A stretch of DNA of 64,000 nucleotides from Acidimicrobiales bacterium. Its GTDB lineage: Bacteria; Actinomycetota; Acidimicrobiia; Acidimicrobiales; Bin134. This document shows, piece after piece, positions 36,113-46,147 of this stretch (positions are counted from its first letter, which is position 1; each line of letters opens with the position of its first letter). The DNA lies in contig OZ246892.1 in the NCBI GenBank assembly GCA_965231915.1, positions 2,443,247 to 2,507,246 of the forward strand, read 5' to 3'. Made by a program: the position numbers and the translations under genes. A model generated the notes under the pieces. That model worked only from the letters and a program-made list of their open reading frames with translations, was not told where the DNA came from and ran no database searches.

Positions 36113-36162
36113 TGTGGATATGTGGAAATGTCTGTGGATACAGTTATTTTCAATATTTTTCC
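36113..36162. repeat. TGTGGATAT-type module, copy 1 (three DnaA-box-like 9-mers plus an AT tract)
   Basis: TGTGGATAT/TGTGGAAAT/gtc/TGTGGATAC followed by AGTTATTTTCAATATTTTTCC, about 100 nt upstream of the MTase start. Confidence 0.5.
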
Positions 36163-36269
36163 GTGTATCAAGGAGCCAGTGTCGTTCGAAAGGGTTTTCG
36201 GCTTGCTCGCCATCCCCAGCAGGGTGAAGAGCGCAAGGCTCAACTCGCCGCTGCCTAGGCTTGGTCCTG

Positions 36270-37124
36270 ATGGGAAAGATCGTTTTCGGTGACAACCTGC
36301 CGGTCTTGCGGGGCTTGTCCGACGGCAGCGTTGACCTCATCTATGTCGACCCGCCGTTCAACACCGGCAAGCGCCAAGAGCGCGAGCGGATCAAGACGGT
36401 GCATGACGAGGCCAACGGCGATCGAACAGGCTTCGCCGGTCGCCGCTACCAGACCATCCGCCTGGGCAAGTCTGGCTACGAAGACGCCTTCGACGACTAC
36501 ATGGCCTTCCTGGCTCCCCGCTTCGAGGAGGCCCACCGAGTGCTGGCCGACAACGGCAGTTTCTTCCTCCACATCGACTACCGGGAGGTCCACTACTGCA
36601 AGGTGCTTCTCGACCAGATCTTCGGCCGAGAGTCGTTCATGAACGAGATCATCTGGGCCTACGACTACGGCGCCCGCTCCAAGAGGAAGTGGTCAGCCAA
36701 GCACGACAGCATCCTGTGGTACGCCAAAGACCCTGCTGACTACACATTCTGCTTCGAGGAGATGGACCGGATCCCCTACATGGCCCCTGGTCTAGTAGGC
36801 AAGGAGAAGGCCGCCCGCGGCAAGACTCCCACCGACGTGTGGTGGCACACCATCGTGAGCCCCAACGGGAAAGAGAAAACCGGCTACGCCACCCAGAAGC
36901 CCCTCGGCGTCCTCGAACGTCTGGTGAAAGTCCACTCCCGCCCAGGCGACCTGTTGCTCGACTTCTTCGCCGGCAGCGGCACCCTCGGCGAAGCCGCCGC
37001 CAAACACGGCCGCGACTACCTCCTCATCGACAACAACCCCGAAGCCATCCAAGTCATGATCCAGCGCCTCGCCCCCACCAATCCCGAACTCATCGGCTGC
37101 GACGCTCTACTCGGAACGCCGTAG
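36270..37124 (+). CDS. beta-class N6-adenine or N4-cytosine DNA methyltransferase
   Basis: Motif IV DLIYVDPPFN lies N-terminal to motif I LLDFFAGSGTLGEAA. An alternative TTG start lies at 36261. Confidence 0.9.
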   Translation: MGKIVFGDNLPVLRGLSDGSVDLIYVDPPFNTGKRQERERIKTVHDEANGDRTGFAGRRYQTIRLGKSGYEDAFDDYMAFLAPRFEEAHRVLADNGSFFLHIDYREVHYCKVLLDQIFGRESFMNEIIWAYDYGARSKRKWSAKHDSILWYAKDPADYTFCFEEMDRIPYMAPGLVGKEKAARGKTPTDVWWHTIVSPNGKEKTGYATQKPLGVLERLVKVHSRPGDLLLDFFAGSGTLGEAAAKHGRDYLLIDNNPEAIQVMIQRLAPTNPELIGCDALLGTP

Positions 37125-37330
37125 AGCACTAAGGGCACTCCCCCAATTCCCATTCCCCGCCAGCAAACGCCGACTCAGCACACAGGTCGCCGACGAAGAT
37201 TCCCAGCGTGTCCGCATCGCATCCAAAGAATGACACCGGCAGCGACCCGACTTTGCCAGCCTCCTGGACCACATTCTCAAAGTAGCAACTTGTGAACTCA
37301 GGGAACCTATCTAACTTGGTCTGAGTTCTT

Positions 37331-37390
37331 TGTGGATATGTGGATATCTCTGTTGATTAAGTGTATTTCAGTATGATTATATATATTTCC
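37331..37390. repeat. TGTGGATAT-type module, copy 2
   Basis: TGTGGATATGTGGATATCTCTGTTGATT... The first 28 nt match copy 1 at 24/28 positions by hand alignment. An AT tract follows (GTATGATTATATATATTTCC). Confidence 0.5.
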
Positions 37391-37716: not shown

Positions 37717-39438
37717 ATGGCTCGACCCGCTGTACGCGAGTACAAAGTCGCGCATCGGCGGTCTGATCCGCTGCACCTTGATCCACACCCTGACACACCG
37801 GAGGAATCTGACTGGAGCGATTGGGTGCAGGGGTTGACTGCGCCGATCGCGGTCGATTTGTTTTGCGGAGCCGGAGGATTGAGTTGCGGGCTTGAGGCTG
37901 CTGGGTGGCAGGTTGTGCTGGCTGCTGACAGCGACGAGTGGGCATTGGAAAGCCATGGGCACAATGTGGCTGGACGGGCTCTGCACCTCGACTTGAGCGA
38001 ACAGCGGGATCGCGATGCGCTAGTAGAGGTCCTCGATGGCGTCGATGTGGGGCTTGTCGCTGGCGGGCCACCTTGCCAGCCCTTCTCGCGGGCAGGTCAC
38101 TCCAAGATCCGAAGCCTTGTCCAACAGGGAGTCCGAAGCGGTGAAGACTCCCGCCGTGAGCTTTGGCGAGCATTCCTGGAGATAGTGGAGGCGGTTCGGC
38201 CGCACGCGGTGCTCATGGAGAATGTGCCAGACATGGCGCTTGGAGACGGTTTTACCGTGTTGCGCAAGATGATCGAGCGTCTCGGCAAGGCTGGATATGA
38301 GGCCGAGGCAAGGATTGTGGATACTTGGCGTTTTGGCGTTCCACAACACCGGCAGCGGCTGATTCTGGTTGGCCTGAGGAACGGGGCTGTATTCGCGTGG
38401 CCCGGTGAATCGGCCCAAGCAACAGTGCGCGACGCGATCTGGGATCTACCGCGCCTTCATGTGGCGCCTAATACCCAGATCGGAGCATCAGAAATGGGTT
38501 ATGGGGCCGCCGCAGCATGTCGCGATGGTCATCCCTCAGCAATGGGAGAGGCGGCTGGCAACGGCGCTGCCCCATTGAGCGGCTTTGCCGCACAAGCTCG
38601 TGAAAGATGCGCAGGAGACAACCCGGGAATTGTCTACGACCACCAGACGCGTGCCGTGCGCGCTGATGACTTTGAGGCGTTCAAGCTCATGGACGGCCAC
38701 ACGCTGTATTCAGATTTGCCTGAGTCCTTGAAGCGCTACAGAGATGACATTTTCGACGACAAGTACAACCGACTTGACTGGGACAAGCTTTCCCGGACGA
38801 TCACGGCGCATATAGCAAAGGACGGCTACTGGTACATCCATCCTGAGCAGCCCCGGACCCTCACCGTCCGGGAGGCTGCCCGCCTCCAGACGTTTCCCGA
38901 CACGTTCCGATTCGCCGGATATCGGTCTCATCAGTTCCAACAGATCGGCAACGCTGTGCCCCCAGTGCTAGGGCAGATAATCGGGAAGGCAATCCTCTAT
39001 AGCCTGCGTGTCCAACCAACTCGCAAAGATCCGCAACCCTCGACTACTGCACTACGCAGCAGGTTCAGAGAGTCAGTACAGCGCTGGACCGACGAAGACC
39101 CTGTTGCAAAGCGAGTAGCGGCCTCACTGGCTAAGGGAGAAGGAAGACACGGCCAGCGGTGGACTGACCTGTTGAATGGCCCCGAGAGCGGGATAGTGGC
39201 ATCGGCTCCAGCCCTGCGCGTGGCATCAAGGGTTTCAGGTGCTGCCAACGAGGGCAGACTCCATAGGTCAACAGCACAGATGGAGTTGGCACAGTTAGTT
39301 GGCATCAGCGGACAAGCCAGGAAGCTCAACATCGCATCACATGTCCTCGGAACAGAAGTCTGCAAACCCGCTATTCCTCTATGCGACAAGTGCCCCGTCT
39401 CGGACATTTGCGCCGAATCCTCGGACGCTGAGCTTTGA
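37717..39438 (+). CDS. DNA (cytosine-5)-methyltransferase with a 143-aa C-terminal extension ending in an EndoIII/MutY-type Fe-S cluster loop
   Basis: Motifs I DLFCGAGG, IV GGPPCQPFS, VI ENV, VIII QHRQRL and X GNAVPP. The extension contains LAQLVGISGQARKLNIASHVLG and C-x6-C-x2-C-x5-C (CKPAIPLCDKCPVSDIC). Confidence 0.9.
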   Translation: MARPAVREYKVAHRRSDPLHLDPHPDTPEESDWSDWVQGLTAPIAVDLFCGAGGLSCGLEAAGWQVVLAADSDEWALESHGHNVAGRALHLDLSEQRDRDALVEVLDGVDVGLVAGGPPCQPFSRAGHSKIRSLVQQGVRSGEDSRRELWRAFLEIVEAVRPHAVLMENVPDMALGDGFTVLRKMIERLGKAGYEAEARIVDTWRFGVPQHRQRLILVGLRNGAVFAWPGESAQATVRDAIWDLPRLHVAPNTQIGASEMGYGAAAACRDGHPSAMGEAAGNGAAPLSGFAAQARERCAGDNPGIVYDHQTRAVRADDFEAFKLMDGHTLYSDLPESLKRYRDDIFDDKYNRLDWDKLSRTITAHIAKDGYWYIHPEQPRTLTVREAARLQTFPDTFRFAGYRSHQFQQIGNAVPPVLGQIIGKAILYSLRVQPTRKDPQPSTTALRSRFRESVQRWTDEDPVAKRVAASLAKGEGRHGQRWTDLLNGPESGIVASAPALRVASRVSGAANEGRLHRSTAQMELAQLVGISGQARKLNIASHVLGTEVCKPAIPLCDKCPVSDICAESSDAEL

Positions 39439-41636
39439 CTCTCACGAACGATCCACAGCGCACGGGACTGCGGTTCCGCCCTCGCGCCCGCCTGATGAAC
39501 ACTTTGGGACGCGAGCTGATCAGCAGCGATACGGTCGCGCTAGCCGAACTAGTCAAGAACTCCTATGACGCTGGCTCCAGTCTTGTGCTGGTTCGCATTT
39601 CCGGAGAAGTCGATGCGGATGGGGCGATCACACCTGACACAGGCACTATTAGCGTCCTAGATGACGGGCACGGAATGGACGAAGAACGGATAATCGGCAC
39701 CTGGCTAGAACCTGCCACCTCGTTCAGGAACGAGCGCGACCCGCTGCAAAATGGGCGGCGTGTGCTCGGAGAGAAGGGTGTCGGCAGGTTTGCGGCTGCC
39801 AAGCTGGGCAACATATTGAATCTGACTTCCAAAACCGCCGATGGTGAAGAAGTCCGGCTAGGACTGGATTGGCGAGCCTTCAATGATGACTCCAAATATC
39901 TGGAGGACATCGGAATCGACTTGTTAGTTGGCAGCACTGGTGTTTTTGCGCAGGATGGGGATGCCGAACGAACATGGCGGGAGCAGTCCGACTTCAGACA
40001 CGACGACCGAATCCGACCCACTCTTGGGCAAGGCACGCTAATCGAAATAGCAGGCCTCCACAGCCGGTGGAACCCAACGCTGGCCATAGCCGTACATCGG
40101 GCGCTCTCAAGGCTTGTAAGCCCTTTCGCAGAGGAACGCGGAGTAGGCGATGGTTTCAGGATATTCCTCGAGATCCCCGATGATCTTGGCCCTCATAGCG
40201 GGGCGGTCACATCAGATGACCTGCTAAAGCAAAGCCATTACAGCCTTAGCGCCGAAGTTGAGGCCGACGGGCAAGCCACAGTTCTGCTCACCCTGAAAGA
40301 CCGAAGTGAACGTGAACAGGAACTTATCCTGAGTCCCAGCCACGATAGCGAGGTGCTCAGATGTGGCCCGTTCGAGGTGTTCTTGTACGTCTGGGACCGC
40401 GATGCCGACTCCATGAGCAGCCTGGCCGAATACTTCGGTGAAAAGAAACTAGCTAGAGATGCGTTGGACGCAGCATCAGGCGTGAACATCTACCGCGACG
40501 AGTTCCGGGTCCTACCCTACGGTGAGATAGGAGATGACTGGCTGGGTCTAGACGCTCGAAGAGTCCAAAATCCGACGATGCGCCTGTCGAATAACCAGAT
40601 AGTGGGGTACGTCCTCATAGGCCGCGACGGAAACCCGGATCTTGTAGATCAGTCCAACAGAGAACGAATAGTCGAAACCCCAGCTTTCGCAGATCTCCGC
40701 GAAGCCGTCAAACAACTTCTAGGAATCATCGAGACGGAACGATTCAAGTTTCGCCCGAGGCAGCCGAAGAAGAGACGTGGCAGTCTGTTTGACCCGATTG
40801 ATCTAGAGCCACTGCGTGAGGCCGTTTCCGAGTTGGCACCGCACGATGAACAAATTCAAGGATTGGTTGACAAGGCTCAAAGTGATTTTGATGAACAACT
40901 CAAACATGCGGGCGAAGCACTATCCAGATACCATCGCCTGGCCACATTGGGGAGACTCACTGATATGGTCGTCCATGAGTTGGCCCAGCCGATTTTCGCA
41001 ATCAGGCAAACTGCTTCACTGAGCATGGCCAAACTTGACGACGTTCCCAACCAGGATCAGGGTGACATCCTAGAAGACATTGATGCCAACTTCAGCAGGA
41101 TAAAAGACCAAGCCGACATTGCAAACACCGTCGTGAGGCGCATCGAACCGTTCGGTGGCAGACAACGAGGCCGACCAGCTAGTCATATTGCAGAAGACGC
41201 CATCCGCAACACAATCGACCTACTCTCCTCTCAGATATCTGATGCTAAAGCGAAAGTCAACTTGCCGACAACGACACACCAGGTAACAATTGATAAAGGT
41301 GAGTTTCAGGAAATCCTCATCAACTTGCTTGACAACAGTCTCTACTGGTTGAAGCAATCTAAGGCAACACTAAGAGAGATCAGCGTGTCAGCAGAAAGAC
41401 ACGATGACGGCAGCCTGTCCATCGTAGTTGAGGACTCTGGACCAGGCATCTCTGATGAGCACAGAGACCTGATTTTCCAGCCGTACTTCTCTACAAAAGC
41501 CGACGGGGTCGGACTAGGTTTGGCCATTGCAGGAGAAATAGTCGAAGATTACTACGGAGGAAGTCTGGAGTTGCTACCACCCGGGCCGCTCGGAGGATCA
41601 AGGTTTAGGGCAACACTTAAAAAGCGAGTCAACTGA
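39435..41636 (+). CDS. cytoplasmic hybrid protein: N-terminal MORC/HATPase_c_3-like GHKL ATPase module plus C-terminal HisKA/HATPase_c histidine kinase
   Basis: N-terminal Bergerat motifs: ELVKNSYDAG, VLDDGHGM, GEKGVGRFAAAKLG. C-terminal H-box VVHELAQPIFAI, N-box LINLLDNSLYW, G1 VEDSGPGI, F IFQPYFSTK and G2 GVGLGLAIA. No TM segment. The TTG start overlaps the dcm stop; an alternative ATG lies at 39495. Confidence 0.85.
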   Translation: MTLTNDPQRTGLRFRPRARLMNTLGRELISSDTVALAELVKNSYDAGSSLVLVRISGEVDADGAITPDTGTISVLDDGHGMDEERIIGTWLEPATSFRNERDPLQNGRRVLGEKGVGRFAAAKLGNILNLTSKTADGEEVRLGLDWRAFNDDSKYLEDIGIDLLVGSTGVFAQDGDAERTWREQSDFRHDDRIRPTLGQGTLIEIAGLHSRWNPTLAIAVHRALSRLVSPFAEERGVGDGFRIFLEIPDDLGPHSGAVTSDDLLKQSHYSLSAEVEADGQATVLLTLKDRSEREQELILSPSHDSEVLRCGPFEVFLYVWDRDADSMSSLAEYFGEKKLARDALDAASGVNIYRDEFRVLPYGEIGDDWLGLDARRVQNPTMRLSNNQIVGYVLIGRDGNPDLVDQSNRERIVETPAFADLREAVKQLLGIIETERFKFRPRQPKKRRGSLFDPIDLEPLREAVSELAPHDEQIQGLVDKAQSDFDEQLKHAGEALSRYHRLATLGRLTDMVVHELAQPIFAIRQTASLSMAKLDDVPNQDQGDILEDIDANFSRIKDQADIANTVVRRIEPFGGRQRGRPASHIAEDAIRNTIDLLSSQISDAKAKVNLPTTTHQVTIDKGEFQEILINLLDNSLYWLKQSKATLREISVSAERHDDGSLSIVVEDSGPGISDEHRDLIFQPYFSTKADGVGLGLAIAGEIVEDYYGGSLELLPPGPLGGSRFRATLKKRVN

Positions 41637-41654: not shown

Positions 41655-42791
41655 TTGGGAGCTGCGTGGCATATTTTGGTAGTTGATGATAACGAAGGAG
41701 TTGCAAAAGACACTGCTGAACTCTTGCATCTAAAATTGAACGCAGATTCACCGACAGGACGTATTATCGCCATGCCAGAAAGCTCCTTCGACAAAGCTTT
41801 GGAGAGGCTTGATCGGGGTGGCATTGACCTACTTGTCTTAGATGTTATTCAACAAGGAGAAATGACACCAAGATCAGAAGAAGAACTCAGAGGCATCGAT
41901 GTATTTGAGCAAGTGCGTGCCACACGGTTTCTCCCAATTGTGTTCCTAACTGCGCTCCCGAACGAGGTCGAACATTACAAGAACCCCCCTTTCGTGCATG
42001 TGGTATCTAAGCAGACAGATGACTTCAATGAAGAATTGGCCCAATGCATATCGGAATGCTTGAATTCCCTGTTTCCACGACTTTCTAGAGAACTACAGAA
42101 CCACATTGATCACGTATCTCGCGACTTTATGATCGAGTTTGTGGAAGAGAATTGGAATGAGTTGAGCGACAACGAAGAAGATATAGCCCATCTGCTGATG
42201 AGAAGACTGGGCGTCTCTTTCGACAATGGCGGCAATCTCTTTGAAGACAGATCTGAAGACTCCACGTCCCTGTTAGGAAAAGTCCCGCCAATTCGCCATT
42301 ACATCGTCCCCCCACCTAAAGAGTTCAGAATGGGCGACGTCTTAAGGCTCCCAGATGAGAGTGGCAGCAGTGAGACTGCAAATAATTGGTACGTCATCAT
42401 GACACCGAGCTGCGACTTGGCCAACGACAAAGCCGACTCGGTAATATTGGCCGAATGCGTTGGAATTAGCGCATTCAATGAGTATAAACAATGGCTAGAG
42501 AGTAGAAGCAGCTCTGCACGAAAGAATTTGACGCGTTTGCTTAGATCAAATCCAAGCGGTGGTCAACAATACCGTTACTACTATCTGCCGAAGGCGTGGA
42601 AGCTACCAGATTTGATTGTCGATCTTCAAAAGATCTTGCACATAGCCTATGAGAACCTTAACAACTACGAGAAGATCGCATCGATTGATAGTCCCTACGC
42701 TGAATCTCTATCACAACAGTTTCTCAGCTATATCGGACGTATTGGTACGCCTGACCTAGATATTGATCTTGCCATAGATCGAATGTCTTGA
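41655..42791 (+). CDS. response-regulator receiver (REC) domain fused to an uncharacterised ~240-aa output domain
   Basis: ILVVDDN, phospho-acceptor context IDLLVLDV, IVFLTA and HVVSKQ form a complete REC signature. I cannot assign the remainder to a family. This is the most AT-rich gene in the window. It starts 18 nt after the kinase stop, with AGGA upstream of a TTG start. Confidence 0.85.
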   Translation: MGAAWHILVVDDNEGVAKDTAELLHLKLNADSPTGRIIAMPESSFDKALERLDRGGIDLLVLDVIQQGEMTPRSEEELRGIDVFEQVRATRFLPIVFLTALPNEVEHYKNPPFVHVVSKQTDDFNEELAQCISECLNSLFPRLSRELQNHIDHVSRDFMIEFVEENWNELSDNEEDIAHLLMRRLGVSFDNGGNLFEDRSEDSTSLLGKVPPIRHYIVPPPKEFRMGDVLRLPDESGSSETANNWYVIMTPSCDLANDKADSVILAECVGISAFNEYKQWLESRSSSARKNLTRLLRSNPSGGQQYRYYYLPKAWKLPDLIVDLQKILHIAYENLNNYEKIASIDSPYAESLSQQFLSYIGRIGTPDLDIDLAIDRMS

Positions 42792-42842: not shown

Positions 42843-43043
42843 ATGGTGAAGGTCAAACCGCAACCGGCTGGCCTTCTGCTTGACTTCTTCCCTGGCAGAG
42901 GCACGTCTAACGAAGTCGCCGCCAGACACGGCCGCGACTACCTGCTTGTCAACAACACCAGTCCCATTGGCATCATGACCCAGCGCCTCGCCTCCACTAA
43001 CCCCTAGCTCATCGGTTGCAACGCGCTCTTCGAATCGTCATAG
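42843..43043 (+). pseudogene. decayed 3' fragment of a beta-class MTase gene, homologous to 36921..37124
   Basis: It translates to MVKVKPQPAGLLLDFFPGRGTSNEVAARHGRDYLLVNNTSPIGIMTQRLASTNP*LIGCNALFESS*. The intact gene has LVKVHSRPGDLLLDFFAGSGTLGEAAAKHGRDYLLIDNNPEAIQVMIQRLAPTNPELIGCDALLGTP*. The fragment has an in-frame TAG and a degenerate FxGxG motif. Confidence 0.7.
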
Positions 43044-43047
43044 TGAA

Positions 43048-44067
43048 CTAATGCCTCGGCGTCAGATTTCGATAGTCCCCCTGGAAGACATGCTCGTGAT
43101 GCCATTCCAAGTACGAGTTTCCAGGGCGCTGCCCTCGCTTGGGAACAACCAACTTTGGCCTCAGGGCCTGGCCAAAGTACTGGTCGACTCCGGGATCAGC
43201 ACGACTGCTTGCCTCCAGTTTGGGGGATTGGTGGACCCTGAGGCCCCCGTTCACAGTAATCAGCCCTGTGTCAAAAGCAGCGTCATGAGTCGGGCAGGCT
43301 GCTACGCCGTTGCGAAAGTCCAACCGCTCATTGTCATCGCACGCTGCCCAGGGCTTGATGTGTGAGGCCACCAGGAGCTTGTTGCCCCTAAGCCTTTTGG
43401 GTGCAAATCCGCAAAAACCGCATGTGTAGCTAAAGTTTTCAAGCACTATCGTTGCGAATCTGTGCTGGCCGTTGCGAATCTTTTGCTCGACGACTCGTTC
43501 TGTTTCACCTACGTCTACCAGATGACGACCTCGTTGCTGGGCAACCATACTGGTCACCACCCTCAACAAATCCTGATGATTCAATTCGTCTTGACCCAAT
43601 AGATCAGCATAATCGAGTCCTTCCAGCATCAGAAAGTCCGGTAGTTTCTGAGTGGTAATTCCCAATTCTCGTGCTGCCGAGAGTACCTGGTTGTAGAGCT
43701 GCGTGAACAGGTTAGGATCTCTCCTCATAGCGGCGTAGAAATCTGGCTCGAATTTTCCGCCCCGATTCCTAGACCCTCCTTCCAGGTTCATCATCTTGTG
43801 AGTGATCGAAGTCGACGGCCTGACAAACAGCTCTGCGAGCTCATGCACCAGCGGCGGGGCGTTACGAATGGACTCGCTCCCATATTTGTGGGGATCGTCG
43901 ACGACCTGGAAGAGTCCATAGCACAAGATGGCTTCTACCGGCGTGAACGGCTCCTGACGAGGTTTCGGCTGGCGGCGAAGTATCTGGCTCCACTGCGATC
44001 GAGCCTGCTCGACTGTGAGGTCGAGGTAGTCGCTCAGCGATCGCACCCTGCCAACGTAGCCGGCCAC
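43048..44067 (-). CDS. HNH endonuclease (HNH_2-type) with an uncharacterised ~210-aa N-terminal region
   Basis: CGFCGF...LLVASHIKPWAACDDNERLDFRNGVAACPTHDAAFDTGLITV. Confidence 0.85.
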   Translation of the reverse strand: MAGYVGRVRSLSDYLDLTVEQARSQWSQILRRQPKPRQEPFTPVEAILCYGLFQVVDDPHKYGSESIRNAPPLVHELAELFVRPSTSITHKMMNLEGGSRNRGGKFEPDFYAAMRRDPNLFTQLYNQVLSAARELGITTQKLPDFLMLEGLDYADLLGQDELNHQDLLRVVTSMVAQQRGRHLVDVGETERVVEQKIRNGQHRFATIVLENFSYTCGFCGFAPKRLRGNKLLVASHIKPWAACDDNERLDFRNGVAACPTHDAAFDTGLITVNGGLRVHQSPKLEASSRADPGVDQYFGQALRPKLVVPKRGQRPGNSYLEWHHEHVFQGDYRNLTPRH

Positions 44068-44166: not shown

Positions 44167-44955
44167 ATGCCCGTGCTTGCACTCAAACCGGCAACCACCA
44201 CCTCTTCTCTGGTGGCCCGGTACACCCGAGCTCTAGTCATGCCCGAAGTCGCAGTCAGGCTCCCCGCGGTGACGGTGATGGAGTCCGGGATCACCCGCGT
44301 GCCCGTCGGGCGTGTCTCAGGGGAGCGCTTGTACCAGTCAGAGCACTTCTTCTTTTGGATGACGGTGATCGAGAACCTCCCCGAGTACACCTTCCAGCGA
44401 GCCTTGAGCTACGCCGACCCCGATAACGTCGAAGAGCTCGCTCAGTTAGCAGGCAGGCTCCGGCTTGAGTCGGTGGAACCTGGCAACTGGTACCCCACCG
44501 AAGAAGACGCGACGGCTCTCTTCTCAAGGTCAGGCGGCTTCGAAGGAGTCCAAGTCACAAAGCAGTCGACTATGGACACGCCGGAGGGGGCCAAGTGCAC
44601 TGCGATGATCTGGTTCACTCCTGACACCCTGGAGAAGATGAGCCTTGCGCTGCTGGCCGCAGCGTATCGGGAAGCAAACGAACAGGGGTACAAGCCGATC
44701 AGCGCTGAAATTGCTGAAGTGGTGCTCCCAGTGGCCAAGCAAATGGATCGATTCGCTGGGTCCGCAGTATTCATGCCGGATACCAGCTACGGGCTTGGAG
44801 GACTGCTGGAAGCCCGTCACGCCCTCAGAATCGGGTCGATCTCTGTACCGAAATCCAGGCTCGCGGAACTCGACGACATCATTTCAACCCATGGCGAGCA
44901 ATACCGCGAATATCTCGGTGGGCGTGATGCCTACGGTCTGACTGTCCGGGTATAA
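44167..44955 (+). CDS. hypothetical protein; start uncertain (candidates 44278 and 44359)
   Basis: Long ORF with a plausible composition from about MTVIENLPEYTFQRAL onward. No family recognised. Confidence 0.4.
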   Translation: MPVLALKPATTTSSLVARYTRALVMPEVAVRLPAVTVMESGITRVPVGRVSGERLYQSEHFFFWMTVIENLPEYTFQRALSYADPDNVEELAQLAGRLRLESVEPGNWYPTEEDATALFSRSGGFEGVQVTKQSTMDTPEGAKCTAMIWFTPDTLEKMSLALLAAAYREANEQGYKPISAEIAEVVLPVAKQMDRFAGSAVFMPDTSYGLGGLLEARHALRIGSISVPKSRLAELDDIISTHGEQYREYLGGRDAYGLTVRV

Positions 44956-44998
44956 GCCAATAGCGGGATCGGATTACCAAGGTCGACGTAGGCTTGGG

Positions 44999-46147
44999 TC
45001 AAGGCCAAAGCTGGTCCGAGGCCAGAGCTTCATGGAAGTACTCGAGGGGCCAGACATGGATGCCGTCTTCGGTTTGGAAGTGGTGGGTGCCGTTGTAGAT
45101 GAGGATGCGGCGGGCCAAGCCGGGGAGGTCGGCTATGGCTCGTAGGCCCTTGAGCATCGCGGTGTTGTAGCGGGCTGCGGCTTTGACTTCGATCGCCAGG
45201 TGCTCGCCGTCGCGGGTAAGTACGAAGTCGACTTCGGCGTTGGACTCGGTGGGCGACCAGTAGGCGATGGCATCGAACACGCTCTGGGTCACATTGTGGG
45301 TCCTCAGCAGCCCATAAACCCAGCCCTCCAACAGAGCGCCTCGCTCTTCGGCGGCAACCGGGCCGAGTTGGCGCTTAGCCGCCCGCACCAACCCCGGGTC
45401 GACCCAGTAGAGCTTGGGACGCTTCCGCTCGCGCACTCGGAGCTTGGCCTCGAACGCCTCTACGCGAGTGGCGAGCAGTGTGTCCTCTAGCACCTCCAGA
45501 TAGCCAGCCACGGTGGGTCGGGCAACCCCCGCATCTCTTGCCAATCCAGCCACATTGAGCGTCTGGGCATGCATCAGCGCGGCCACCGGGAGGAACCGAA
45601 TGAAGCCAGGCAGATTCCGCACTGCGGCCTCAGCTCTGATCTCCTCGCGAAGATAGAGCTGGGTGTAGCTCTCCAAGACTTCACGGCGGTCATCGGCCGC
45701 CCACACCAGCGGAATGGTCCCGAAACTGAGGGCGTCGTCCAAATCGAAATCGCCACCCAACTCGGCCGGGGTGAGCGGATACATGGCCTTGTGGGCTGCC
45801 CGCCCGGCCAGCAGATTCGTGCCTGCTGTCTTGAGTTTCCGAGCGCTGGAGCCCAGCAGAGCAAAGCGCAAACCTCGTTCTTCGATCTGACGGTGAACCT
45901 CATTGAGCAGGGCGGGAATGCGCTGCACTTCGTCCACCACTATCCACTCATCAGGCTCAGCGCCCGACAGGAGGTTTCCGAACAGCGCTGGATCAGCCAG
46001 CAAATCTGTGTAAAGGGCCTCGTCGAGCAGGTCGAAGCGCGTGGCGTCGGGCAGCATCATGCGCACCCAGGTGCTCTTGCCCACGCCGCGCACGCCGAAC
46101 AGGAAGAAGCTCCGCTCGGGAACCGGCAAGAGCCTCGTGTATACCAT
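44999..46147 (-). CDS. AAA ATPase with DUF4143 domain (AAA_14/DUF4143 family)
   Basis: Walker A FGVRGVGKST, Walker B WIVVDEVQ, and the typical C-terminal ...AEVDFVL...AIEVK block. Confidence 0.85.
   Translation of the reverse strand: MVYTRLLPVPERSFFLFGVRGVGKSTWVRMMLPDATRFDLLDEALYTDLLADPALFGNLLSGAEPDEWIVVDEVQRIPALLNEVHRQIEERGLRFALLGSSARKLKTAGTNLLAGRAAHKAMYPLTPAELGGDFDLDDALSFGTIPLVWAADDRREVLESYTQLYLREEIRAEAAVRNLPGFIRFLPVAALMHAQTLNVAGLARDAGVARPTVAGYLEVLEDTLLATRVEAFEAKLRVRERKRPKLYWVDPGLVRAAKRQLGPVAAEERGALLEGWVYGLLRTHNVTQSVFDAIAYWSPTESNAEVDFVLTRDGEHLAIEVKAAARYNTAMLKGLRAIADLPGLARRILIYNGTHHFQTEDGIHVWPLEYFHEALASDQLWP

What the first reader, a model, noticed from the sequence alone, without database searches (positions are those of the whole stretch)
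39435..40725. MORC-like GHKL ATPase used as the N-terminal sensor module of a histidine kinase
The first ~430 aa carry an independent GHKL ATP-binding signature followed by a long non-TM region (...GVNIYRDEFRVLPYGEIGDDWLGLDARRVQNPTMRLSNNQIVGYVLI...). Only after this do the DHp helix and catalytic domain begin.

Histidine kinases normally sense through PAS/GAF/HAMP or periplasmic domains. A second, non-kinase Bergerat ATPase (of the type that clamps DNA in MutL/MORC/GyrB) as the input is unusual. It suggests that ATP-dependent nucleic-acid engagement is the signal.
Basis: partly seen in the sequence, partly recalled or inferred. Interest (0 to 1): 0.6.

Follow-up and report, generated by a model that had tools for sequence, protein, structure and literature searches.

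The report
Methylase-linked MORC-like histidine kinase cassette
The gene does encode a soluble histidine kinase whose front half is a MORC/Hsp90-type ATPase, but it belongs to a widespread, mobile, already described and mostly untested gene trio (cytosine DNA methylase, this kinase, a receiver protein with a toxin-like fold) that probably acts like a restriction system that signals instead of cutting.

Summary
ORF 39435-41636 (733 aa) has an N-terminal HATPase_c_3 domain with intact ATP-binding motifs and a second, transducer-like domain. Its predicted fold aligns over 440-490 columns with SMCHD1, MORC2 and Hsp90/TRAP1. A helical linker follows, then an intact HisKA-type DHp (H514) and catalytic domain. 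There is no membrane segment.

The gene sits in a low-GC island, translationally coupled to an upstream C5 methylase. A response regulator follows, made of REC, a helical linker and a 170-aa domain of probable MazF/PemK fold. In that protein only the phospho-Asp and Cys253 are invariant.

The trio is conserved. The receiver lies directly downstream in 77 of 84 loci and a Dcm lies within 6 kb in 73 of 84. At least 586 species across most phyla and archaea carry a relative, as do 70 plasmids. Only 3 of 61 relatives have it.

The architecture was published in silico in 2021 (HEF_HK / Response_reg_2). This clade fails both Pfam models and has a different output, yet its kinase matches a bona fide HEF_HK kinase at E = 1e-56. 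A possibly related system, Ambrosia, was reported in 2025 to block phages.

"Unusual" is overstated, and DNA sensing remains inference. I classify it as a new variant of a known kind.

The parts
37717..39438 (+). C5 cytosine DNA methyltransferase (573 aa). Its C-terminal aa 499-568 (39211-39420) are an EndoIII/MutY-like iron-sulfur-loop remnant. Its stop overlaps the kinase start.
   Evidence: PF00145 E 1.3e-55. PADLOC MTase_II/DrmMII. The C-terminus matches a glycosylase HMM at positions 158-227, E 1.9e-11. TTGA overlap.
39435..41636 (+). Soluble GHL-ATPase / histidine-kinase fusion (733 aa, P0001)
39435..40124 (+). N-terminal strap (aa 1-20, conserved R19) plus GHKL Bergerat ATP-binding domain (aa 21-230)
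   Evidence: HATPase_c_3 E 3.1e-20. Invariant E38, N42, D45, D76xGxG80, G112xKGxG117. Hsp90-family PDB sequence hits near 1e-7. R19 is conserved in at least 90% of 82 sequences, which supports a start upstream of M21.
40125..40754 (+). Second, transducer-like domain (aa 231-440). It holds the most conserved block, aa 341-420, with motif YRDGFRVLPYG..DWL.LD.RR and a cluster of conserved arginines.
   Evidence: Foldseek aligns 440-490 columns with the SMCHD1 6mw7, MORC2 9cdh/9cdj/5ofa and TRAP1 4ivg ATPase modules. Conservation profile. Conserved R341, R354, R358, R375, R376, R383, R409, R436, R440.
40755..40934 (+). Poorly conserved helical linker (aa 441-500)
   Evidence: Model secondary structure. 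Low conservation.
40935..41159 (+). DHp helical hairpin with the phospho-accepting His514 (codon 40974-40976; H-box VHELAQP)
   Evidence: H514 invariant in 82 sequences. PDB profile hits to FixL chimeras, ThkA, ZraS and HK853 at 1e-29 to 1e-18.
41187..41633 (+). Histidine-kinase catalytic ATP-binding domain (aa 585-733)
   Evidence: PF02518 E 1e-24. N, G1, F and G2 boxes conserved.
41655..42791 (+). Response regulator (378 aa, P0003). REC is aa 1-137 (D63 codon 41841-41843). The helical linker is aa 138-205. The output domain is aa 206-378 (42270-42788), with invariant Cys253 (codon 42411-42413) in a TPSCD motif.
   Evidence: REC hits in PDB, TrrA 3a0u at 1.7e-10. Model pLDDT 87.5. D63 and C253 are the only invariant residues in 71 diverse sequences. 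BFVD Foldseek hits to PemK/MazF-like proteins.
36922..37132 (+). Left copy of a diverged direct repeat (3' end of the N4/N6 methyltransferase gene) that brackets the cassette
   Evidence: Repeat families D1 and D2, 72-75% identity
42844..43051 (+). Right copy of the repeat (methyltransferase 3'-end remnant) just after the receiver gene

Best explanation
The first ~440 residues of ORF 39435-41636 are a GHL-type ATPase module of the MORC/SMCHD1/Hsp90-like kind. It consists of a Bergerat ATP-binding domain plus a transducer-like second domain, fused through a helical linker to an intact HisKA-type transmitter.

The protein is the middle gene of a horizontally mobile three-gene cassette. The order is C5 DNA methyltransferase, then this kinase, then a response regulator made of REC, a helical linker and a probable MazF/PemK-fold domain with an invariant cysteine. 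The cassette occupies the place a restriction enzyme would hold in a Dcm(-Vsr) restriction-modification unit.

Most likely mechanism (inferred, not shown):
1. The kinase is a constitutive dimer through its DHp bundle, which stands in for the C-terminal dimerisation domain of MutL/MORC/Hsp90.
2. ATP-driven closing of the two N-terminal GHKL heads depends on a cue tied to the methylase's mark. Candidate cues are unmethylated target DNA, loss of methylation, or a phage product.
3. That state is passed through the linker helices and switches autophosphorylation of His514.
4. The phosphate moves to Asp63 of the receiver.
5. This releases or dimerises the toxin-fold output domain, which arrests the cell or the invader. 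The outcome would be defence or addiction rather than DNA cleavage.

Shown here: domain identities, intact catalytic motifs, gene linkage, mobility, and homology to the published HEF_HK class. Inferred: the cue, the direction of the switch, and what the output domain does.
For: Domains and motifs.

Fold of the N-half: Foldseek matches SMCHD1, MORC2 and TRAP1 at 2e-11 to 5e-10 over 440-490 columns.

Linkage: the Dcm stop overlaps the kinase start, and there is an 18-nt gap to the receiver gene.

Census of 84 loci:
- The receiver lies directly downstream in 77.
- A Dcm lies within 6 kb in 73.
- Vsr is present in 55 of 82.
- No recurrent restriction nuclease was found.

Phosphorelay residues: H514 and D63 are invariant.

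Mobility:
- The island has 51-59% GC against about 65% around it.
- Diverged direct repeats bracket the cassette.
- Only 3 of 61 relatives carry it, one of them disrupted.
- It is on 70 plasmids, 53 of them conjugative.

Relation to the published class: a bona fide HEF_HK kinase (PF19191, 3.6e-21) sits next to a Dcm and a Response_reg_2 protein. It matches this family's HMM at 1.3e-56 in three segments.

Precedent for defence:
- Ambrosia (N6 MTase + 'sensor HK/Hsp90-like ATPase' + REC + HNH) blocks phages and needs the receiver Asp (bioRxiv 10.1101/2025.09.30.679545).
- Homologous GHL kinases sit in cassettes of that gene content (L119, L124).
- Detocs shows that a kinase plus REC-effector pair can be an immune system (bioRxiv 10.1101/2023.01.24.525353).

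Output domain: seven PemK/MazF-like hits in BFVD, with listed probabilities of 0.96-1.00 and TM up to 0.66 on the target. The order of secondary-structure elements matches MazF.
Against: - No experiment exists for this clade.
- No DNA-binding or sequence-reading domain was identified in the kinase. Segment 161-340 is acidic family-wide (median net charge -8).
- The MazF-fold call rests on structure prediction only. Pfam PemK does not hit, and profile-profile comparison with eight PemK toxins is not significant (E 0.06, against 0.11 for the REC control).
- The arginine and threonine conserved in the PemK toxins aligned here, which I equate from memory with the MazF catalytic pair, have no conserved counterpart. 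The output may therefore not be an RNase.
- PADLOC v2 has no model for either protein beyond a GHKL hit to a type II REase.
- Homology of P0001 to Ambrosia AbrB itself was not tested, because that sequence was not on hand.
- The Ambrosia authors favour transcriptional control through a wHTH receiver, which this receiver lacks.
Confidence: 0.6

Rival explanations
1. The N-terminal GHL module senses a phage protein or a proteotoxic or replication cue in an Hsp90-like, client-binding way, and does not engage DNA. The methylase is a co-travelling partner, for example the target or guardee, and not the source of the self mark read by the kinase.
For: By sequence the GHKL domain is closest to Hsp90, endoplasmin and TRAP1. 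TRAP1 and GRP94 are among the fold matches. The N-module is acidic. In Ambrosia, methylation by AbrA did not protect phages, and the kinase is proposed to 'detect phage infection'.
Against: Linkage to C5 methylases is very tight, across phyla and in both gene orders. MORC2 and SMCHD1 score as well as or better than Hsp90 in fold search. There is a conserved arginine cluster in aa 341-440.
Confidence: 0.2
2. The cassette is mainly an addiction (post-segregational killing) module that stabilises the methylase or mobile element, and not an anti-phage system. Loss of methylation after loss of the element triggers the kinase and the toxin-fold receiver.
For: It has the same linkage and mobility evidence as the main reading. 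It is enriched on conjugative plasmids (53 of 70). It lies next to toxin-antitoxin genes on C. jejuni pAR-0413-1. Type II R-M systems are known to behave this way (established knowledge).
Against: This reading is not exclusive of defence. If the kinase and receiver are lost together with dcm, no killing follows unless the proteins outlast the methyl marks.
Confidence: 0.12
3. The GHL module acts like MutL in very-short-patch repair of T:G mismatches that arise from 5-methylcytosine deamination. The two-component part only regulates that repair or methylase activity.
For: Vsr is present in 55 of 82 loci. A MutY/EndoIII-like glycosylase gene or fusion occurs in others, and a remnant sits on this Dcm. 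MutL stimulates Vsr in E. coli (established knowledge). Iyer et al. 2008 draw the MutL/paraMORC parallel.
Against: Vsr accompanies Dcm generally, so its presence is not specific to this cassette. The receiver has no DNA-binding output, but a toxin-like fold with an invariant Cys. The sporadic, plasmid-borne distribution is typical of conflict systems and not of repair.
Confidence: 0.06
4. This is an ordinary environmental sensor kinase whose N-terminal domain is a degenerate, duplicated kinase catalytic domain.
For: Public annotation is simply 'sensor histidine kinase' or 'ATP-binding protein'.
Against: The N-domain hits HATPase_c_3 and not HATPase_c. All ATP motifs are invariant. The fold matches GHL ATPases including their second domain. 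The context is never an ordinary regulon.
Confidence: 0.02

Closest known systems
HEF_HK / Response_reg_2 'two-component-system-like' elements linked to R-M systems and paraMORC ATPases (Bellieny-Rabelo, Pretorius & Moleleki 2021, PMC8011034)
   Same: Both have a soluble HATPase_c_3 + DHp + HATPase_c kinase directly followed by a receiver-like gene, next to a C5 methylase, with Vsr or HNH_2 often nearby. A bona fide member (L116: Dcm 365 aa, HK 993 aa, RR 555 aa) has a kinase that matches this family's HMM at 1.3e-56 over the GHKL, middle and DHp-CA parts.
   Different: P0001 and ten diverse relatives do not hit PF19191. P0003 does not hit PF19192, and only 1 of 71 partners does. This kinase is about 730 aa, against about 990 aa in that member. 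This receiver is about 380 aa with a canonical REC (25 of 71 partners hit PF00072) and a different C-terminal domain. That domain's HMM does not hit the Response_reg_2 protein.
Ambrosia anti-phage system, AbrR-AbrA-AbrB-AbrC-AbrD (van den Berg et al. 2025, bioRxiv 10.1101/2025.09.30.679545)
   Same: It combines a methylase, a 'sensor histidine kinase/Hsp90-like ATPase' and a REC protein in one cassette. It is experimentally anti-phage and needs the receiver Asp. Gammaproteobacterial homologues of P0001 (E 3e-62) sit in cassettes with a short REC, an HNH and an Eco57I-like N6 methylase.
   Different: Ambrosia has an N6-adenine methylase, an XRE regulator, a REC-wHTH receiver and a separate HNH nuclease. 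The window's cassette has a C5 methylase, no regulator, no nuclease of its own and a REC-MazF-fold receiver. Homology of P0001 to AbrB itself was not tested.
Prokaryotic MORC / paraMORC GHKL+S5 ATPases of restriction-modification operons (Iyer, Abhiman & Aravind 2008, PMC2292703), and eukaryotic MORC2 / SMCHD1
   Same: Both have an N-terminal GHKL domain with intact ATP motifs followed by a second domain, and both associate with cytosine methylases and Vsr. The fold matches MORC2 and SMCHD1.
   Different: The C-terminal partner here is a histidine-kinase transmitter, not a nuclease, TIR or helicase partner. The 2008 paper mentions no receiver or two-component link. Assignment to paraMORC1-5 could not be tested.
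BbrUII/HgiDII family restriction enzymes (NCBIfam NF050001)
   Same: The N-terminal GHKL domain is similar (E 4.6e-14; aa 21-144 against profile positions 10-126).
   Different: Only the GHKL domain matches. The rest of that 659-position profile is not matched, and here a kinase takes its place.
Detocs defensive two-component system (Rousset et al., bioRxiv 10.1101/2023.01.24.525353)
   Same: Both have a kinase plus a receiver-effector pair used as an immune switch with a non-DNA-binding output.
   Different: Detocs has a TPR sensor, a third buffer receiver and a PNP ATP-nucleosidase effector, and no methylase. No sequence relationship was detected.
MazF / PemK / Kid / CcdB toxins
   Same: The receiver's aa 206-378 have the predicted fold and the same order of strands and helices.
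   Different: There is no Pfam PemK hit and no significant profile-profile score. The 'RP' arginine and T/S residue conserved in the PemK toxins aligned here are not conserved in this domain, whereas Cys253 is invariant and Asp254 nearly so. A helical insert lies at aa 275-296.

Membership tests
GHL-type (MORC/paraMORC/Hsp90-like) ATPase module | Bergerat-fold ATP-binding motifs: N box ExxxNxxD, G1 DxGxG, G2 GxxGxG | tested here: met
   E38/N42/D45, D76xG78xG80 and G112xK114G115xG117 are invariant or nearly invariant in 52 and 82 sequences. PF13589 scores 73 bits against a cut-off of 25.
GHL-type (MORC/paraMORC/Hsp90-like) ATPase module | A second (transducer / S5-like / middle) domain directly after the GHKL domain | tested here: met
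   Foldseek alignments of 440-490 columns to SMCHD1 6mw7, MORC2 9cdh/9cdj/5ofa, TRAP1 4ivg and GRP94 5uls, E 2e-11 to 6e-10, TM on target 0.31-0.49. The model pLDDT is 78.8, so the match is at fold level only.
GHL-type (MORC/paraMORC/Hsp90-like) ATPase module | ATP-dependent dimerisation of the N-terminal heads; ATP hydrolysis; DNA or client engagement | not testable with these tools
   This needs multimer modelling or biochemistry.
MORC family proper / paraMORC1-5 of Iyer et al. 2008 | Family-specific signature motifs and C-terminal extensions | not tested
   No models of these families were on hand. The paper lists no kinase fusion.
HisKA-type sensor histidine kinase | DHp with the phospho-accepting His in an H-box | tested here: met
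   The VHELAQP motif is present and H514 is invariant. PDB profile hits to the FixL, ThkA, ZraS and HK853 DHp+CA reach 2e-29 to 5e-18. Pfam HisKA itself scores only 17.7 bits, below its 26.9 cut-off.
HisKA-type sensor histidine kinase | CA domain with N, G1, F and G2 boxes, and a cognate receiver with the phospho-Asp | tested here: met
   PF02518 E 1e-24. N630/N634, DxGxG and GxGxG are conserved. An adjacent REC carries invariant D63, with D12, P94 and K119 nearly invariant.
HEF_HK / Response_reg_2 system (PF19191 + PF19192) | The kinase matches PF19191 above its cut-off | tested here: not met
   There is no hit at E <= 10 in the protein or in the whole genome. None of ten diverse relatives hits it at E < 0.01. 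A positive control, the L116 kinase, scores 75.9 bits.
HEF_HK / Response_reg_2 system (PF19191 + PF19192) | The partner matches PF19192 above its cut-off | tested here: not met
   No hit for P0003. Only 1 of 71 partners hits it, at 2e-5. A positive control, the L116 partner, scores 80.9 bits.
HEF_HK / Response_reg_2 system (PF19191 + PF19192) | Architecture HATPase_c_3 + DHp + HATPase_c, no membrane segment, adjacent receiver-like gene, C5 methylase nearby | tested here: met
   The kinase is homologous to a bona fide member at 1.3e-56.
Ambrosia | Five genes: XRE regulator, N6 methylase, HATPase kinase, REC-wHTH, type IV HNH | tested here: not met
   The cassette has a C5 methylase, no XRE and no wHTH. 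The island's N4/N6 methylase and HNH lie outside the repeat-bracketed cassette. An HNH like P0005 occurs in only 4 of 84 loci.
MazF/PemK toxin (receiver output domain) | Sequence membership (PF02452), and the 'RP' arginine and T/S residue conserved in the PemK toxins aligned here | tested here: not met
   There is no Pfam hit. hhalign gives E 0.06, the same as the control. No conserved Arg precedes strand 2 and no conserved Thr lies in strand 3.
MazF/PemK toxin (receiver output domain) | SH3-like barrel fold with a C-terminal helix | tested here: inconclusive
   There are seven PemK/MazF-like BFVD hits with listed probabilities of 0.96-1.00 and TM on target 0.30-0.66, and the element order is compatible. 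The tool does not report which residues align, and the PDB search was swamped by REC hits.
Type II restriction-modification system | A methylase plus a cognate restriction endonuclease | tested here: not met
   The methylase is present. No recurrent nuclease family was found in the flanks of 82 loci.

The most novel reading that the evidence does not exclude
The cassette is a distinct form of methylation-keyed immunity in which 'restriction' is not DNA cleavage. A MORC-like ATP-driven clamp, dimerised through a histidine-kinase DHp bundle, reads whether DNA carries the partner C5 methylase's mark. It converts that reading into His-to-Asp phosphotransfer. The phosphotransfer activates a MazF-fold effector with a novel cysteine-based active site (invariant Cys253, near-invariant Asp254) that arrests the cell or the invader.
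Probability: 0.3. Interest if true: 0.8.

Novelty: new variant of a known kind. Interest (0 to 1): 0.5.

Why it matters
If the inferred mechanism holds, this would be a widespread way of coupling an epigenetic self mark to a phosphorelay instead of a nuclease. At least 586 species genomes carry a relative of the kinase, and 5,221 protein clusters at 50% identity match the receiver's output-domain profile.

It would also give a bacterial model for how MORC/SMCHD1-type ATPases turn ATP-dependent clamping into a downstream signal. And it would add a MazF-fold domain with a different, cysteine-centred chemistry to the known effector repertoire.

The cassette rides on conjugative plasmids, including many Campylobacter plasmids. 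It may therefore affect plasmid and phage traffic in natural populations. The class has been noted in silico since 2021, and only one, possibly distant, relative has been tested.

Tried and rejected
1. Filing under PF19191/PF19192. Both models fail on the window's proteins, on the whole genome and on diverse relatives, while positive controls pass.
2. Proving the MazF relationship by sequence. hhalign of the output-domain alignments against eight PemK toxins from related genomes was not significant and no better than the REC control. My first PemK alignment was contaminated by wrong-frame ORFs and was discarded.
3. PDB Foldseek with the whole receiver model. The top 50 hits were all REC matches.
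4. Profile search of 1.84 billion representatives with the output domain, looking for stand-alone or differently fused versions. The best 150 are mostly the same REC-linked architecture at about 360-420 aa. The shorter entries (159-322 aa) may be fragments; I did not check them.
5. MADS as a relative. It is an eight-gene N6-methylase system without this kinase.
6. WonAB (Vibrio). The paper only cites paraMORC in passing.
7. Promoter and terminator scan of the island. It found no more sites than shuffled sequence.
8. A fused DNA reader. One homologue (L051, Duganella) has a 380-aa N-terminal extension with an EcoRII-N hit of 18.9 bits, below the cut-off of 25. This is only a weak lead.
9. Direct comparison with Ambrosia AbrB.

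Full report
**Observation**

The window holds an ORF at 39435-41636 (+) of 733 aa. Pfam finds three domains:
- HATPase_c_3 at aa 33-154 (E 3.1e-20).
- A sub-threshold HisKA at aa 505-558.
- HATPase_c at aa 622-730 (E 1e-24).

The N-terminal Bergerat motifs are invariant or nearly so in 52 close and 82 diverse homologues. These are E38/N42/D45, D76xGxG80 and G112xKGxG117. The same holds for H514 and the kinase N, G1 and G2 boxes.

There is no hydrophobic segment. One amendment: a poorly conserved helical linker (aa ~416-500) separates the N-module from the DHp.

R19 is conserved upstream of M21. This argues that the TTG at 39435, which overlaps the Dcm stop as TTGA, is nearer the real start than the ATG used for the 713-aa database homologues.

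**What the N-module is**

By sequence, the profile of the family hits Hsp90-family N-domains in the PDB (endoplasmin, TRAP1, HtpG) at about 1e-7 over aa 10-137. The C-half hits FixL chimeras, ThkA, ZraS and HK853.

An AlphaFold2 model has pLDDT 78.8. It matches histidine kinases with its C-half. With its N-half it matches, over 440-490 aligned columns, the ATPase modules of SMCHD1, MORC2, TRAP1 and GRP94.

The module is thus a GHKL domain plus a second, transducer-like domain, as in GHL ATPases. It is not a decayed copy of the kinase catalytic domain. NCBIfam also links the GHKL domain to the BbrUII/HgiDII restriction-enzyme family (E 4.6e-14).

**Context in the window**

GC falls from about 0.65 to 0.51-0.59 between 36 and 44 kb. 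The kinase is flanked as follows:
- Upstream lies a C5 methyltransferase at 37717-39438 (PF00145, E 1e-55).
- Eighteen nucleotides downstream lies a 378-aa protein at 41655-42791.

Further out are an N4/N6 methyltransferase (36261-37124) and a convergent HNH_2 nuclease (43048-44067). About 210 nt of the N4/N6 methylase 3' end is repeated at 42844-43051 with 72-75% identity. The Dcm-kinase-receiver block therefore looks like an insertion into an older methylase/HNH pair.

**The receiver**

P0003 is a REC domain, with PDB TrrA at 1.7e-10. Its acidic pocket residues D12, D63, P94 and K119 are conserved. A helical linker and a 170-aa domain without any family hit follow.

In 71 diverse sequences only D63 and C253 (motif TPxCD) are invariant. 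The model is good, with pLDDT 87.5.

Against the PDB, REC hits fill the list. Against viral predicted structures, seven PemK/MazF-like proteins appear, with listed probabilities of 0.96-1.00 and target TM up to 0.66. The order of strands and helices in aa 228-362 fits MazF with one helical insert.

Sequence methods do not confirm this. The arginine and T/S residue conserved in the PemK toxins I aligned are not conserved here either. I rate the fold assignment about 65% likely and regard the chemistry as unknown. An earlier agent reached the same fold call. That is a repeat, not independent proof.

**How general the cassette is**

- More than 120 full-length database homologues at 46-88% identity nearly all share the two-domain signature.
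- A scan of one genome per species found at least 586 genomes with a relative. They span Actinomycetota, Chloroflexota, Verrucomicrobiota, Planctomycetota, Acidobacteriota, Bacteroidota, Cyanobacteriota, Pseudomonadota, Bacillota and methanogenic archaea.
- In 84 loci the receiver homologue lies directly downstream in 77, often with a 4-nt overlap.
- A Dcm lies within 6 kb in 73 of those loci, either just before the kinase or just after the receiver.
- Clustering of the flanks finds Vsr in 55 of 82 loci, a MutY/EndoIII-like glycosylase in 8, and no recurrent restriction nuclease.
- The receiver's output-domain profile finds 5,221 clusters at 50% identity. The best 150 are mostly of the same REC-linked architecture.
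- Only 3 of 61 related genomes carry the kinase, and one copy is split and carries a stop.
- Seventy plasmids carry it, 53 of them conjugative, with the same trio annotated generically.

**What is already known**

Bellieny-Rabelo et al. 2021 described HATPase_c_3 + HEF_HK + HATPase_c proteins with three properties. They showed 91.6% linkage to Response_reg_2 proteins, were enriched near C5 methylases, Vsr and HNH_2, and were tied to paraMORCs. Iyer et al. 2008 defined MORC/paraMORC ATPases in R-M operons but described no kinase fusion.

The window's proteins fail both Pfam models, as do diverse relatives. A bona fide HEF_HK locus (L116) has Dcm, a 993-aa kinase and a 555-aa Response_reg_2 protein. 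Its kinase matches this family's HMM at 1.3e-56 in three segments, but its receiver does not match ours. The window therefore holds a sister clade with a different output.

Following a lead from earlier notes, I read van den Berg et al. 2025. Ambrosia consists of XRE, an N6 methylase, a 'sensor HK/Hsp90-like ATPase', a REC-wHTH protein and a type IV HNH. It protects P. aeruginosa from phages and needs the receiver Asp. I could not compare AbrB directly.

Gammaproteobacterial homologues of P0001 (E 3e-62) do sit in cassettes with a short REC, an HNH and an Eco57I-like N6 methylase. Detocs is a further precedent for a defensive kinase/REC-effector pair.

**Mechanism**

The domain logic suggests a GHL clamp whose constitutive dimerisation domain is the DHp bundle. 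ATP-dependent closure of the heads would be gated by a cue tied to the methylase's mark. That closure would set the kinase state, and phosphotransfer to D63 would activate the toxin-fold domain.

The linkage, the intact catalytic residues and the mobility are shown. The cue, the sign of the switch and the effector chemistry are inferred.

Points against direct DNA reading are the absence of a recognisable DNA-binding domain and the acidic aa 161-340. A conserved arginine cluster in aa 341-440 is compatible with nucleic-acid or gamma-phosphate contact.

**Verdict**

The finding is a new variant of a known, computationally described and barely tested kind.

Noticed in passing
window 39211-39420 (Dcm aa 499-568); L001 5391-7337: The C5 methylase carries a C-terminal extension ending in a C-x7-C-x2-C-x5-C iron-sulfur loop. 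It matches only the last third of a MutY/EndoIII-like glycosylase family (E 1.9e-11). That glycosylase is a separate gene in about 8 cassette loci and a complete fusion on the Mycolicibacterium lacusdiani Dcm. It may replace Vsr for T:G repair after 5mC deamination; this window has no Vsr.
   Followed up: partly
window 36922-37132 and 42844-43051: Diverged direct repeats (72-75% identity, about 210 nt) of the N4/N6 methylase 3' end bracket the Dcm-kinase-receiver block. This suggests the block was inserted into, or recombined within, an older methylase/HNH pair. No integrase was seen among the ORFs I scanned in this island.
   Followed up: partly
window 36113-36156 and 37331-37374: A 44-nt motif rich in TGTGGATA repeats occurs upstream of both methyltransferase genes (80% identity). 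It may be a shared operator or regulatory site.
   Followed up: no
window 43048-44067 (-): An HNH_2 nuclease resembles phosphorothioate-DNA-binding / type IV restriction enzymes (NCBIfam NF045808, 1.8e-19; PADLOC HNH, 1.3e-27). Its N-terminal ~210 aa are unassigned. It converges on the methylase remnant.
   Followed up: partly
window 41655-42791 and 39435-39494: The database gene call for the receiver is 339 aa (P0126) and cuts into the REC domain. Homologues support the 378-aa TTG start. Close kinase homologues are called at 713 aa (M21), although conserved R19 lies upstream.
   Followed up: partly
genome G236, contig C1, 1495391-1495873 and 1514677-1516407: In a same-genus genome the kinase gene is split into two pieces about 19 kb apart, and one piece holds a TGA stop. 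This is an inactivated copy.
   Followed up: no
own genome G000 (11 places): The genome carries 11 PemK/MazF-family toxin genes, so it is rich in toxin-antitoxin modules.
   Followed up: no
L119 8031-13352; L124 7767-13035: Gammaproteobacterial cassettes hold a GHL-kinase, a short REC protein, an HNH nuclease and an Eco57I-like N6 methylase. Their gene content resembles the validated Ambrosia system, and their kinase is homologous to the window's.
   Followed up: partly
L051 4846-8226: A Duganella homologue is 1,127 aa by longest ORF. Its 380-aa N-terminal extension gives a sub-threshold EcoRII-N (DNA-binding) hit of 18.9 bits against a cut-off of 25.
   Followed up: partly
window 44167-46147: At the island edge, an unknown 262-aa ORF (no Pfam hit) converges on an AAA_14/DUF4143 ATPase.
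   Followed up: no
L117 (C. jejuni plasmid pAR-0413-1) and 40 other Campylobacter plasmids: The kinase-receiver-dcm trio is common on conjugative Campylobacter plasmids. On pAR-0413-1 it lies next to vapD, a recombinase and a HicB antitoxin.
   Followed up: no
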